DNA of 64,000 bases from the human T2T-CHM13v2.0 reference genome, Homo sapiens. This document shows, piece after piece, positions 1-24,693 of this stretch (position 1 is the stretch's first letter; every line of letters starts with the position of its first letter). The translations under genes were made by a program, and so were the position numbers. The DNA is taken from NCBI RefSeq assembly GCF_009914755.1, contig NC_060940.1. One strand, written 5' to 3'. The notes under the pieces are model-generated. The model was not told the DNA's origin. It saw nothing but the letters and a program-made list of their open reading frames with translations, and made no database searches.

Positions 1-730
1 CCGCCGGGATTCACATTTCAACAGCGACGTCCTTTCTCTGTTGGACTCGGCAAGGAACTACATTTCCCAGCAGGCACCGGCGCAGAGGTCGAGGGGCGAG
101 GTCGCCATCTTTTTCGTAGTCCTCTCCCTCATTTCCGCAGGGAAGAGGCCAGACGCCTGGACTACACATCCCATGTCGCAGTCGCCCCGGCCCTGCAGCC
201 GCCATCTTTGCCGGTAGCCCCGCCCCATCCCCTTCCATTGTCTCGACTTGAGATGATAGACGGGAGCCGGGAGACTGCAACTCCCGTCAGGCCGTGCGCC
301 ACTGGTGGGGGGGATTTCGAGACCACAGGCGGGCGAGGTGCCCAAGGTGGTGGAAAGCGGAGACCGGGAGAGGCTAGGTAGCCTGCCATCTTTACGGTAG
401 TCTCCTCGTCCTCCTGGTTCCGCCATTCTTAAGGAACACTGGAAGGCTATAAAACTACTAATCCCATCGCACCTCGTAAGATCGACTACTAGTCAGGTGT
501 ATGTCCCTCTTCCGCCATCTTGCTTGTAGTCCTCTTTCCTTTTCACCTTTCCATTGTTCCTGACGAGTAGAAATGGCAGCGGGAAGGCAGCAGATGGACT
601 GCGACTCCCGTCAGGTACCACACACGCGGAGGGTTGTGGACAGGAGGGCGTGTGAGTGCCTGGGAAGGAGGTCGGGTCGGGGGAGAAGGCCATCTTGTTT
701 GTAGTCATCGTTCCCTCTCCTTCTCGATGT
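1..730 (-). ncRNA. FBXL19-AS1: 5' part of divergent antisense lncRNA (boundaries approximate)
   Basis: Recalled locus knowledge. YY1 motifs read AAGATGGC on the minus strand, the orientation typical just downstream of a TSS. The transcript itself cannot be shown from sequence. Confidence 0.5.
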
Positions 731-913
731 TCTGCAACTGGGAGCCTCGGGGCAACGGGACTCTAACTCCCGGCATCCTCGGCTCCCGGCTGGGCACGCC
801 CTCCGCCGTCCTGTTTGTAGTTCCCGCTGTCCCCAGCGTCCTATTGTTCCCCCGTAGCATCAGTGGCCGCAGGACTACAACTCCCGTCGAGCCCTGCGTG
901 CGTTCGTCCTGGA

Positions 914-1080
914 AAGTGGAGGTGGTGGAGGAAGGAGGGGGAAGGGGGCGGGGTTCCTCTGGGAGAAGGAGGGAGTAAAGAGGGGGAGGAGGAGGAGGAG
1001 GAGGGAAGGAGGAGGGAGGGGAGGGGAGGGGGGAAGAGAGGAGGAAGGAGGAAGGAGCTGAGGAGGGATGAGAGAGGCGG
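914..1080 (+). repeat. Polypurine (GGA/GGGA) low-complexity tract
   Basis: Almost pure G/A sequence including (GGA)n; a pyrimidine tract follows at 1141-1195. Confidence 0.85.
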
Positions 1081-1229
1081 CCAGGGCCCCGGGCCGTAGC
1101 AGCGCGGGGCTGGGGGACCAGGGGGGCTGAGACACCCCAACTGCCCCCTTCCCCTTTCCCTCTCCCCCTCTATCCTTTCCTTCCACCCTCCCGCTTGAGG
1201 AGGGGGATTTATTCAAATTTTATTTAAAT

Positions 1230-1921
1230 CCCTATCTCCCGAGGGTCGCGCGCTTGGGGGAGGGGGAGAGGTCGGGGGTGCGCGCGGGCTGGGGGGGGCG
1301 GGGCCGGAGCAGCTTCCTTCACCTCCCCCTCCGCTCGCCTCGCAGCCGTAGGGCAGGGGGTCGCAGTCCAGGGGCGGGCCCAGGGGAGGGGGGCAGGTTA
1401 CAGCGACCCCCCCCTCCCCGGGAACCGGCGGTGGGCGGGCTTGAACCCCGGAAACGGTGGGGGGGGCCCAGGCCTGGCACTGGACCCCTGGGCAGTGGGG
1501 TCCGGGAAGGGGCCAGTTAAAGGGCCAGGGGCGCTGGGGAGAGGCGGGGCGGGGTGGGGGGAGGGGAGCTGGGACTCGGACCCGGGACTGAGTGGGCCCC
1601 GGGCAGAAGCTGAGCACCCTGCGCCCAAGGAGCCCCCGTTGGCCTGGGGGGGCTGAGGGACTGAGCCTCCCAGAGCAGGACCTCCCCCTGGAAGGGCCGC
1701 GCCGCAGCCCGTGGGAGGGCCTCGCCCCCGGCGCCCCCCATCTCCACTCGCCGCCGTCCCGGCCTCCGCCGGAGGGAGGGGCCGAGCGCCCTCGGGGGGC
1801 CGTGGACCCCGGCGTTCTGAGCGTTCCGCGCCCCGCGCCGCCCGGCCCCCCCGCCGCCGATGGCCGCCGACCCGCCGGGAGCTGCCGAGAAGGGAGAGAT
1901 GGCTCCCGGGACACGTGTGAG
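1230..1921 (+). other. FBXL19: FBXL19 upstream first exon (5' boundary uncertain)
   Basis: Donor GAG|GTGGGT at 1922 inside the CpG island; would splice to acceptor 3193 and use ATG 3217 (674-aa form). Confidence 0.6.
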
Positions 1922-2194
1922 GTGGGTTCATGCGGCTCCTCCTCACCCCCAGACCTGGGCAGCGCCCACTCCCATTCATCCTCAGCCCGGCCTCTCTCTA
2001 CCTTCCCCGCCCCCAGCCTCACCCTCTCTCTACTCCAAACTCATCTCCAGCCCTCCTTCCTATGACCTCTCCACCCTGGGGAACTGGCCCTCCTTCCTAG
2101 ACCCTGCTTCCCCTTGAAAGCCCCCACCCCCGCCTGCAGTCGCCGCCCTCCAGGCCCCTCCCCTGGAGCGCTGGAGGGCCCCTTAGCCCCATGG

Positions 2195-24693
<22,499 letters not shown>

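What the first reader, a model, noticed from the sequence alone, without database searches (positions are those of the whole stretch)
54..892. Strictly alternating two-motif array (7 SBS + 6 fixed-spacing YY1-ACTAC composites) upstream of FBXL19
Seen: motif A (ACTAC/ACTGC-nnn-TCCC, + strand) at 57, 161, 274, 454, 598, 760, 874. Motif B (GCCATCTT-N4-GTAGT) at 104, 201 (N5, GTAGC), 385, 514, 689, 805 (GCCGTCCT). The order is A-B-A-B...A without exception, and five of six B copies have an exact 4-nt spacer although the flanks differ. Known: A matches the ZNF143/THAP11-associated ACTACAnnTCCCA element and GCCATCTT is the YY1 core. Inference: B read on the minus strand (ACTAC-N4-AAGATGGC) looks like an ACTAC half-site fused to YY1 at fixed spacing, a composite I do not recognise as a named motif. 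The array may be a grammar-constrained platform for bidirectional initiation.
Basis: partly seen in the sequence, partly recalled or inferred. Interest (0 to 1): 0.8.

Follow-up and report, generated by a model that had tools for sequence, protein, structure and literature searches.

The report
Tandemly duplicated ZNF143/YY1 promoter module
The alternating motif array at the FBXL19/FBXL19-AS1 promoter is real, but it is an old local tandem duplication of one promoter module, so the order and spacing are inherited rather than evidence of a new general motif.

Summary
The array is a decayed tandem repeat found nowhere else in the genome. It consists of three ~220-320-bp dimers (57-273, 274-597, 598-873), each carrying A-B-A-B, that align at 72-73% identity for neighbouring dimers (z 9.5 and 20.9). 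Same-parity monomers are clearly related and opposite-parity ones barely so. Strict alternation and the 4-nt spacer are therefore inherited by duplication.

Across the six B copies, GTAGT (29/30) is kept as well as the YY1 core (46/48), while the spacer (13/24) and flanks (229/450) have decayed. This points to local constraint on GTAGT.

ACTAC-N4-AAGATGGC has 54 hits against a mean of 56.5 per spacing for k=0-14, and CpG-extended variants show no k=4 peak. Only 1 of 14 other k=4 instances sampled lies in a CpG island.

Annotated start sites fall on the module: + strand 517 is the A of GCCATCTT, and FBXL19-AS1 (731, minus) starts 35 nt upstream of a YY1 motif. This is an ordinary kind of promoter in an unusually repetitive form.

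The parts
57..273 (+). Dimer D1 of the higher-order repeat (monomers M1 57-160 and M2 161-273), carrying A-B-A-B
   Evidence: D1 vs D2 153/211 = 73% identity, z 9.5; D1 vs D3 128/204 = 63%, z 2.7
274..597 (+). Dimer D2 (M3 274-453, M4 454-597), carrying A-B-A-B
   Evidence: D2 vs D3 188/261 = 72% identity, z 20.9; M3-M5 z 10.1, M2-M4 z 8.3, M4-M6 z 9.1
598..873 (+). Dimer D3 (M5 598-759, M6 760-873), carrying A-B-A-B; followed by a terminal A at 874
57..76 (+). A1, SBS/M4-type element ACTACATTTCCCAGCAGGCA (strict M4)
104..120 (+). B1, GCCATCTT-N4-GTAGT; the minus strand reads ACTAC-N4-AAGATGGCG
161..180 (+). A2, ACTACACATCCCATG... (strict M4)
201..218 (+). B2, GCCATCTT-N5-GTAGC (the one copy with a 5-nt spacer)
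274..293 (+). A3, ACTGCAACTCCCGTCAGG (ACTGC variant; fails strict M4)
385..401 (+). B3, GCCATCTT-N4-GTAGT
454..473 (+). A4, ACTACTAATCCCATCG (fails strict M4 at position 6)
514..530 (+). B4, GCCATCTT-N4-GTAGT; the annotated alternative FBXL19 first exon starts at 517, the A of GCCATCTT
   Evidence: hub annotation (exon 517-614)
598..617 (+). A5, ACTGCGACTCCCGTCAGGTA; the 5' splice site CAG|GT of the alternative first exons (end 614) lies in its tail
   Evidence: hub annotation
689..705 (+). B5, GCCATCTT-N4-GTAGT; relative to the FBXL19-AS1 start (731, minus strand) ACTAC is at +27..+31 and AAGATGGC at +36..+43
   Evidence: hub annotation
760..779 (+). A6, degenerate copy ACTCTAACTCCCGGCAT; lies 29-48 nt upstream of the AS1 start on the minus strand
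805..821 (+). B6, degenerate YY1 core GCCGTCCT-N4-GTAGT
874..893 (+). A7, ACTACAACTCCCGTCGAG (strict M4), terminal copy, 160 nt upstream of the main FBXL19 start at 1034
   Evidence: hub annotation
235..244 (+). C block CCATTGTCTC, a third conserved block 34 nt after the start of B2
   Evidence: (family D14)
551..560 (+). C block CCATTGTTCC, 37 nt after the start of B4
   Evidence: (D14)
841..850 (+). C block CTATTGTTCC, 36 nt after the start of B6
725..734 (+). Degenerate C block CGATGTTCTG, 36 nt after the start of B5; contains the annotated FBXL19-AS1 start (731, minus strand)
   Evidence: hub annotation
423..432 (+). Degenerate C block CCATTCTTAA, 38 nt after the start of B3; with the preceding G it reads as an orphan YY1-like core GCCATTCT (422)

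Best explanation
The array is a decayed tandem repeat, found nowhere else in the genome, that makes up the CpG-island promoter shared by FBXL19 and FBXL19-AS1.

Origin. An ancestral ~150-bp module held four things: a YY1 core followed 4 nt later by GTAGT, a pyrimidine tract, a CCATTGTTCC block, and a ZNF143/THAP11-type element (SBS/M4). The module duplicated to a dimer, and the dimer was then amplified to three copies plus a terminal A. Alternation, same-strand orientation and the 4-nt spacer are therefore inherited.

Constraint. Since the duplications, the motif cores, including GTAGT, have been kept while the spacers decayed. This indicates purifying selection on the cores.

Function (inferred). 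The SBS copies act as orientation-independent activators that recruit ZNF143/THAP11/HCFC1. The six co-oriented YY1 motifs read AAGATGGC on the minus strand and so position initiation just upstream of themselves on that strand, the FBXL19-AS1 strand. The CCAT core can also serve as a cryptic initiator on the + strand. Each B-to-A segment thus looks like a small antisense-strand core promoter: SBS about 30-50 nt upstream, start site in the C block, ACTAC at about +27, YY1 at about +36. The copies may work additively or synergistically.

The ACTAC-N4-YY1 arrangement is a property of this repeat and not a general composite motif.
For: Shown by tool results:
- Coordinates and same-strand order confirmed.
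- No paralogue elsewhere in the 3.1-Gb genome.
- Dimer alignments: D2-D3 188/261 (72%, z 20.9); D1-D2 153/211 (73%, z 9.5).
- Monomers of the same parity are related (mean z 5.5, 6 pairs) and those of opposite parity much less (mean z 1.0, 9 pairs).
- With the motif cores removed, B-to-A spacers keep residual homology (mean z 1.5 over 15 pairs; u2-u4 5.2, u4-u6 4.6). A-to-B spacers do not (mean z 0.09).
- B-to-A distances are tight (57-84 nt, four of six within 69-73). A-to-B distances vary (40-111 nt).
- Conservation to consensus: YY1 core 46/48, GTAGT 29/30, spacer 13/24, other columns 229/450.
- The array is CpG-island-like: GC 0.60, CpG observed/expected 0.76.
- Genome-wide spacing tests are negative. 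13 of 14 other k=4 instances sampled lie in AT-rich, CpG-poor DNA.
- The array's B-to-A arrangement has 21 genome hits (1 of them this locus) against 18 with YY1 flipped.

From the hub annotation: + strand start sites at 313 and 517, a minus-strand start at 731, the main FBXL19 start at 1034, and RefSeq functional elements overlapping the array.

From papers (passages read):
- HCFC1-bound CpG-island promoters are enriched for the ZNF143/THAP11, GABP and YY1 motifs (PMC3668359).
- YY1 is strand-specific and activates initiation immediately upstream of itself, whereas ZNF143 is bidirectional (bioRxiv 10.1101/2023.06.27.546584).
- YY1 lies within about 30 bp downstream of start sites. Ablating it loses initiation within 50 bp upstream. 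YY1 submotifs can act as initiators on either strand (PMC11160661).
- Tandem mouse L1 Tf monomers each need their YY1 motif, and these motifs account for the synergy between monomers (PMC11602158).
Against: - No occupancy, start-site or cross-species conservation data could be consulted here, so factor binding and selection are inferred from paralogue comparison alone.
- Only 3 of the 7 A copies in the window meet the strict M4 consensus, so several may be weak or dead sites.
- The annotated AS1 start is 35 nt upstream of AAGATGGC, at the far edge of the roughly 30-bp window reported for YY1. RefSeq 5' ends are also imprecise.
- The older monomer-to-dimer duplication is supported only weakly (opposite-parity mean z 1.0). 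The two monomer types could have acquired their motifs separately.
- Tandem Repeats Finder reported nothing in 54-892.
- That AAGATGGC is the sense-strand reading downstream of start sites is recalled knowledge (Xi et al. 2007 and the human L1 5' end). That paper was not held.
- The strong conservation of GTAGT is not explained by this reading beyond 'a constrained half-site'.
Confidence: 0.72

Rival explanations
1. B is a true fixed-spacing composite element. An ACTAC(A) half-site, of the type linked to THAP11/HCFC1 recruitment beside ZNF143 sites, sits 4 nt from a YY1 core, so the two factors bind side by side and jointly recruit HCFC1. The spacing is kept by selection, not only by descent.
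For: - GTAGT is conserved 29/30 across the six copies, equal to the YY1 core (46/48). The 4-nt spacer (13/24) and flanks (229/450) have decayed.
- On the minus strand the copies read GGACTACG, GGGCTACC, AGACTACC, GGACTACA, TGACTACA and GAACTACA. These resemble the RRACTACAN extension described next to SBS (PMC3082894).
- The composite survives in both monomer types even though these share little else.
- YY1 and THAP11 are both reported to bind HCFC1 (PMC3668359).
Against: - No spacing preference genome-wide: k=4 gives 54 hits against a mean of 56.5 for k=0-14.
- With AAGATGGCG, 4 hits outside this locus at k=4, tied with k=1, 7, 8 and 9 (35 hits in all, hand tally).
- With ACTACA-Nj-AANATGGCG, j=3 has 6 hits outside this locus against 8 at j=7 and 9 at j=8 (65 hits, hand tally).
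- The control 5-mer TACAC gives 50 hits against 35 for ACTAC.
- Only 1 of 14 other k=4 instances sampled is in CpG-island-like DNA.
- None of 16 other multi-SBS CpG-island loci carries it.
- A ChIP-derived extended YY1 motif quoted in bioRxiv 10.1101/2025.11.09.687492 shows no ACTAC.
- The exact-match tests have low power: a use in fewer than about 0.3% of YY1 sites would be missed.
Confidence: 0.12
2. The array is a neutral minisatellite-like relic. The motif matches persist only because the copies are related or are homogenised by gene conversion, and the promoter activity resides elsewhere in the CpG island.
For: - The array is a tandem repeat.
- Four of the seven A copies fail strict M4, and B6 has a damaged YY1 core. 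Both are as expected for decay.
- No conservation or binding data were available.
Against: - Decay is strongly non-uniform: cores 46/48 and 29/30 against 13/24 and 229/450 for adjacent columns. Neutral decay and gene conversion of whole units do not predict this.
- Annotated start sites fall on motif features: 517 on the A of GCCATCTT, and 731 in a C block 35 nt upstream of AAGATGGC.
- RefSeq functional elements overlap the array (hub annotation).
Confidence: 0.08
3. The array is a methylation-sensitive cluster of YY1 sites of the kind found as tandem arrays in imprinting control regions (Peg3, Xist and others), acting as an epigenetic switch and not as a constitutive promoter.
For: - Five of six B copies fit the clustered-site criterion cgCCATntt with at most one lower-case mismatch, with three or more within 500 bp (criterion from PMC2665242; flanks).
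- Three copies have a CpG directly in CGCCATCTT.
- Such arrays typically sit in tandem repeats with poor overall conservation (PMC2665242).
Against: - Nothing seen here links FBXL19 to imprinting or allele-specific methylation.
- FBXL19 is not mentioned in the main text of PMC2665242. Its supplement could not be read.
- The interleaved SBS elements and the annotated bidirectional start sites fit a housekeeping-type CpG-island promoter.
Confidence: 0.04

Closest known systems
Bidirectional CpG-island promoters carrying ZNF143/THAP11 (SBS, M4, ACTACANNTCCC) and YY1 motifs that recruit HCFC1
   Same: The same two motif types occur in a CpG island between divergent transcripts. Both motifs are among the five reported as over-represented in bidirectional promoters (PMC3082894), and both are HCFC1-associated (PMC3668359).
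   Different: Here there are 7-8 SBS-type and 6 YY1 copies, all co-oriented and interleaved, produced by tandem duplication. Typical promoters carry one or two.
Tandem monomer promoter of mouse LINE-1 Tf elements
   Same: Both are tandemly repeated promoter monomers of roughly 200 bp, each with a YY1 motif. In Tf the motif is required for monomer activity and for synergy between monomers (PMC11602158).
   Different: Tf monomers belong to a transposon and are young and nearly identical. The FBXL19 array is single-locus, strongly diverged (63-73% between dimers), dimeric in structure, and also carries SBS elements.
Clustered YY1 binding sites in tandem arrays at imprinting control regions (Peg3, Xist, Nespas) and the conserved YY1 clusters found by ECMFinder
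   Same: Both have multiple co-oriented YY1 cores inside a locus-specific tandem repeat, with motifs kept while intervening sequence diverges (PMC2665242).
   Different: The imprinting-region arrays are described there as arrays of a single motif type tied to allele-specific methylation. This array alternates two motif types and sits on annotated start sites.
Same-strand multi-SBS arrays in other human CpG islands
   Same: Of 16 CpG-rich loci that I picked by eye from the 73 M4-pair hits, all have at least two co-oriented strict M4 copies. One has seven (L017, chr12:133.137 Mb) and one has five at a 31-bp period (L021). ProCapNet notes a high per-peak density of the THAP11 motif (PMC11160661).
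   Different: None of the 16 has two or more GCCATNTT cores or the ACTAC-N3-5-AANATGG composite. The interleaved YY1 copies are particular to FBXL19.

Membership tests
ZNF143/THAP11 binding element (SBS / M4, ACTAYRNNNCCCR) | Match to the published M4 consensus | tested here: inconclusive
   3 of the 7 copies in the window match strictly (57, 161, 874), as does the copy at -89. The copies at 274, 454, 598 and 760 each miss. Consensus taken from the abstract of PMC5006282 in the listing.
ZNF143/THAP11 binding element (SBS / M4, ACTAYRNNNCCCR) | Location in a CpG-island promoter close to start sites | tested here: met
   GC 0.60 and CpG observed/expected 0.76 over 54-892. Annotated start sites at 313, 517, 731 and 1034 (hub annotation).
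ZNF143/THAP11 binding element (SBS / M4, ACTAYRNNNCCCR) | Occupancy by ZNF143, THAP11 and HCFC1 in cells | not testable with these tools
YY1 binding site | Core GCCATNTT / AANATGGC | tested here: met
   5 of 6 copies are exactly GCCATCTT. The sixth is GCCGTCCT, with 2 mismatches.
YY1 binding site | Strand-specific position just downstream of a start site | tested here: inconclusive
   The AS1 start at 731 (minus) lies 35 nt upstream of AAGATGGC of B5. This is within the 50-bp ablation window but at the edge of the ~30-bp enrichment window (PMC11160661). Only one minus-strand start site is annotated. The sense orientation of the motif is recalled, not read here.
Fixed-spacing composite transcription-factor element (ACTAC-N4-AAGATGGC) | Spacing-specific enrichment at independent loci | tested here: not met
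   k=4 gives 54 hits against a mean of 56.5 per spacing. CpG-type variants show no peak. The control 5-mer gives 50 hits against 35. Only 1 of 14 other instances sampled is in a CpG island.
Fixed-spacing composite transcription-factor element (ACTAC-N4-AAGATGGC) | Both half-sites constrained while the spacer sequence is free | tested here: met
   Within the array only: core 46/48, GTAGT 29/30, spacer 13/24.
Tandem repeat with higher-order (dimeric) structure | Copies homologous beyond the motifs, with in-register similarity higher than out-of-register | tested here: met
   D2-D3 72%, z 20.9; D1-D2 73%, z 9.5. Same parity mean z 5.5 against 1.0 for opposite parity. Spacer-only z up to 5.2.
Tandem repeat with higher-order (dimeric) structure | Detection by a standard tandem-repeat finder | tested here: not met
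   Tandem Repeats Finder at minimum score 30 reports nothing in 54-892. The copies differ by many indels and are 63-73% alike.
Bidirectional promoter | Opposite-strand start sites within 1 kb | tested here: met
   From the hub annotation: FBXL19-AS1 starts at 731 (minus) and FBXL19 at 1034 (+), with alternative + strand starts at 313 and 517 that overlap the AS1 transcript.
Imprinting-type clustered YY1 array | Three or more cgCCATntt-type sites within 500 bp | tested here: met
   Five copies qualify (104, 201, 385, 514, 689). Criterion from PMC2665242.
Imprinting-type clustered YY1 array | Allele-specific methylation or imprinted expression | not testable with these tools
   No methylation or allelic expression data are available.

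The most novel reading that the evidence does not exclude
The amplified B-to-A segment is a self-contained antisense-strand core-promoter cassette: SBS about 30-50 nt upstream, start site in the CCATTGTTCC block, ACTAC at about +27 and YY1 at about +36. Within it, the ACTAC half-site 4 nt from YY1 docks THAP11 (or the part of ZNF143 that reads ACTACA) beside YY1. HCFC1 would then be recruited by a YY1-anchored composite that has escaped notice because it is rare outside this locus.
Probability: 0.12. Interest if true: 0.55.

Novelty: new member of a known kind. Interest (0 to 1): 0.3.

Why it matters
The finding looked like evidence for motif grammar: strict order and fixed spacing. Tandem duplication alone produces exactly that pattern, so repeats must be excluded before order or spacing is read as regulatory syntax.

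What remains of interest is modest but concrete. The repeat is a natural experiment in which six paralogous copies show which bases are kept: the YY1 core, GTAGT, the SBS core and a CCATTGTTCC block. The locus offers a compact test bed for how many ZNF143/YY1 modules a promoter needs, and for whether YY1 orientation sets the sense/antisense balance between FBXL19 and FBXL19-AS1.

Tried and rejected
- Tandem Repeats Finder (min score 30) found no array in 54-892, only the purine tract at 962-1068. The repeat had to be shown by pairwise alignment against shuffles.
- The two 'shifted register' controls are invalid because the compared segments overlapped in the window. They were replaced by the monomer matrix.
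- A genome search with the whole array found only itself, so this is not a dispersed repeat family or a segmental duplication.
- Rfam gave no RNA family in 1-6200, so no snRNA-type gene accounts for the SBS copies.
- ORFs in 1-1000 are short and start in different frames. Unit lengths are not multiples of three and no coding sequence is annotated here, so coding constraint does not explain GTAGT.
- The built-in 'reversed pattern' control of the genome pattern search is not usable for the AAGATGGC patterns, because the reversed pattern gains a CpG. Comparisons across spacings and a composition-matched 5-mer were used in its place.
- The whole-window shuffle tests with mismatches allowed are weak: 5 hits against 1.2 expected, and 19 against 13. 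The Markov test on exact copies replaced them.
- Literature searches found nothing on this array or on an ACTAC-YY1 composite. For FBXL19-AS1 / promoter / YY1 and FBXL19 with ZNF143/THAP11/HCFC1 I saw the top 15 listings only. ACTACA plus AAGATGGC returned primer-type hits in the 15 listed of 377. This is not proof of absence.
- The ECMFinder supplement listing the 31 conserved YY1 clusters could not be read. FBXL19 may or may not be among them.
- Xi et al. 2007 is not held.
- The promoter array and the intronic SBS array share only the SBS (local alignment z 0.2).
Full report
**1.

Reading window 1-1500 and scanning with regular expressions puts motif A at 57, 161, 274, 454, 598, 760 and 874. 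Motif B is at 104, 201, 385, 514, 689 and 805. All copies are on the + strand and in strict A-B alternation.

- Six A copies fit ACTRC-NNN-TCCC. The copy at 760 reads ACTCT and is found only with a looser pattern.
- Only 57, 161 and 874 fit the published M4 consensus ACTAYRNNNCCCR (consensus from the abstract of PMC5006282 in the listing).
- Four B copies are exactly GCCATCTT-N4-GTAGT. The copy at 201 has a 5-nt spacer and GTAGC. The copy at 805 has GCCGTCCT.
- Three orphan partial motifs lie inside the array: GCCATTCT at 422, ACTAC at 485, and a reverse-oriented AAATGGC at 573.
- An eighth A copy sits at window -89, outside the window, with no clear B after it.

A first-order Markov model expects 0.016 GCCATCTT and 0.004 ACTAC-N3-TCCC per 839 nt on one strand. 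That gives P about 1e-11 for the counts seen if the copies were independent. They are not independent, which is the main point of this report.

**2. The array is a decayed tandem repeat with a dimeric higher-order unit**

A search of the whole 3.1-Gb genome with window 40-900 finds only the array itself. It is therefore not a dispersed repeat or a segmental duplication. Tandem Repeats Finder sees nothing in 54-892, but alignment against shuffled controls does.

| Comparison | Result |
|---|---|
| D2 (274-597) vs D3 (598-873) | 188/261 = 72% identity, z 20.9 |
| D1 (57-273) vs D2 | 153/211 = 73%, z 9.5 |
| D1 vs D3 | 128/204 = 63%, z 2.7 |
| Monomers M2-M4, M4-M6, M3-M5 | z 8.3, 9.1, 10.1 |
| Same-parity monomer pairs (6) | mean z 5.5 |
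| Opposite-parity monomer pairs (9) | mean z 1.0 |
| B-to-A spacers, motif cores removed (15 pairs) | mean z 1.5; u2-u4 5.2, u4-u6 4.6 |
| A-to-B spacers, motif cores removed (15 pairs) | mean z 0.09 |

The two 'shifted register' controls compared overlapping segments and are void.

- B-to-A distances are 57, 73, 69, 84, 71 and 69 nt. A-to-B distances range from 40 to 111 nt.
- A third conserved block, CCATTGTTCC or a degenerate form of it, lies 34-38 nt after the start of B in five of six units.

Each dimer already carries A-B-A-B. Alternation across 13 motifs therefore reduces to one ancestral arrangement copied three times. The shared 4-nt spacer is likewise inherited.

**3. The cores are kept selectively**

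I aligned the six B copies in register and counted matches to the column consensus.

| Columns | Matches to consensus |
|---|---|
| YY1 core | 46/48 |
| 4-nt spacer | 13/24 |
| GTAGT | 29/30 |
| All other columns | 229/450 |

- In 200,000 draws of five 'other' columns, none reached 27/30.
- GTAGT is thus as constrained as the YY1 core in this array, including between the two monomer types, which otherwise share little.
- On the minus strand the copies read RR-ACTAC-(A/C/G), resembling the RRACTACAN extension described beside SBS elements (PMC3082894, passages).

**4. The composite is not a general motif**

The window's own genome can be pattern-searched, so I ran that test genome-wide.

- k=4 gives 54 hits, 4 of them this locus. 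k=0-14 gives 848 in total, a mean of 56.5 per spacing.
- Requiring the CpG-type YY1 site AAGATGGCG gives 35 hits (hand tally). k=4 has 6, of which 2 are this locus. The remaining 4 tie with k=1, 7, 8 and 9.
- ACTACA-Nj-AANATGGCG gives 65 hits (hand tally). j=3 has 7, one from this locus, against 8 at j=7 and 9 at j=8.
- A composition-matched control 5-mer, TACAC, gives 50 hits where ACTAC gives 35.
- I sampled 14 other k=4 instances: the first 8 listed, 4 CpG-type ones, and 2 whose 17-mers match copies in the array. Thirteen lie in DNA of GC 0.34-0.50 with CpG observed/expected 0.05-0.31. One (L013) is CpG-island-like.
- The array's B-to-A arrangement (GCCATNTT, 46-76 nt, ACTACANNTCCC) has 21 genome hits, 1 of them this locus. 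With YY1 flipped there are 18.

These exact-match tests have limited power, but they exclude any strong general use of the composite or of the pair order.

**5. How the array most likely works**

The array is CpG-island-like: GC 0.60 and CpG observed/expected 0.76. According to the hub annotation it carries several start sites.

- Alternative FBXL19 first exons begin at 313 and 517.
- FBXL19-AS1 begins at 731 on the minus strand.
- The main FBXL19 start is at 1034.
- RefSeq functional elements overlap the array.

Position 517 is the A of GCCATCTT in B4. Position 731 lies in the degenerate C block of unit 5. Relative to that start on the minus strand, ACTAC sits at +27..+31, AAGATGGC at +36..+43, and the SBS at 760 lies 29-48 nt upstream.

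Passages I read in papers support the mechanism.

- YY1 is strand-specific and activates initiation immediately upstream of itself, while ZNF143 acts bidirectionally (bioRxiv 10.1101/2023.06.27.546584).
- YY1 lies within about 30 bp downstream of start sites. Ablating it removes initiation within 50 bp upstream. YY1 submotifs can themselves initiate on either strand (PMC11160661).
- ZNF143/THAP11 and YY1 motifs are two of the three motif classes under HCFC1 peaks at CpG-island promoters (PMC3668359).
- Both motifs are among the five over-represented in bidirectional promoters (PMC3082894).
- In tandem mouse L1 Tf monomers the YY1 motifs are needed for each monomer and account for the synergy between them (PMC11602158).

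My inference is that each B-to-A segment is a small antisense-strand promoter, and that all six YY1 motifs are oriented toward FBXL19-AS1. That AAGATGGC is the sense-strand reading is recalled knowledge, not read here. The SBS copies would supply orientation-independent activation for both strands.

Binding, start-site usage at the other units and selection across species are not shown.

**6. Comparison with what is known**

- The motif types, their co-occurrence and their role in bidirectional CpG-island promoters are established.
- Same-strand multi-SBS arrays recur in the genome. A genome search for two M4 motifs 80-110 nt apart gave 73 hits. Many are Alu-like or VNTR sequences.
- I picked 16 CpG-rich loci from those hits by eye and fetched them. 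All 16 have at least two strict M4 copies on one strand, 7 have three or more, and L017 has seven. None has two or more GCCATNTT cores or the composite.
- The FBXL19 array is therefore a new member of a known kind. Its distinguishing features are the interleaved YY1 copies and the conserved GTAGT.
- My searches found no paper describing it (top listings only). The ECMFinder supplement that lists conserved YY1 clusters could not be read.

**7. Verdict**

Motif identities and the bidirectional platform hold. Grammar and a general composite do not.
- Interest is 0.3.
- The boldest reading still open is a locus-specific ACTAC-YY1 composite within an amplified antisense core-promoter cassette, at about 12% probability.

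Noticed in passing
window 5436-5838, minus strand (FBXL19 intron between exons 5207-5425 and 5929-6090): A second decayed tandem array that also occurs nowhere else in the genome. It has three strict SBS/M4 copies (5470, 5547, 5827, all minus strand) interleaved with six copies of a palindromic GAGCRYGCTC word (5436, 5515, 5584, 5679, 5753, 5790). That word occurs nowhere else in the 64 kb. The variants GAGCACGCTC and GAGCGTGCTC suggest CpG decay from GAGCGCGCTC. The array hits only itself in the genome and shares nothing with the promoter array beyond the SBS (z 0.2)..
   Followed up: partly
L009, window coordinate -89 (outside the window): An eighth SBS copy (ACTACATTTCCCGCC, strict M4) lies 146 nt upstream of A1, with no recognisable YY1/GTAGT unit between them. 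The array decays at its upstream edge.
   Followed up: partly
window 422, 485, 573: Orphan partial motifs inside the array: a YY1-like CGCCATTCTT without GTAGT (422, in the C block of unit 3), an ACTAC without TCCC (485), and a reverse-oriented AAATGGC (573).
   Followed up: no
window 611-617: The 5' splice site CAG|GT (exon end 614) used by the alternative FBXL19 first exons lies in the 3' tail of SBS copy A5 (ACTGCGACTCCCGTCAG|GTA). The in-register copies A3 and A7 lack the GT (hub annotation).
   Followed up: no
window 900-1070: A purine-only GGA/GGAGG-rich tract (Tandem Repeats Finder rows at 962-1068, periods 3, 32 and 39) lies between the array and the main FBXL19 start at 1034. A mirror pyrimidine tract lies at 1141-1180.
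   Followed up: no
L017 (G000:C12:133136900-133138700), L021 (G000:C20:65776900-65778100), L018-L020, L022: Other CpG-island loci carry same-strand arrays of strict M4/SBS motifs. L017 has seven in about 740 bp, L021 has five at an exact 31-bp period, and L018, L019, L020 and L022 have three each. This looks like a recurrent class of tandemly duplicated SBS promoters.
   Followed up: partly
window 235-244, 551-560, 841-850: The conserved C block CCATTGTTCC matches a SOX-type CATTGTT core. On the + strand it also matches the recalled human initiator consensus BBCABW (TCCATT). Its role, as initiator or as a factor site, is unresolved.
   Followed up: no
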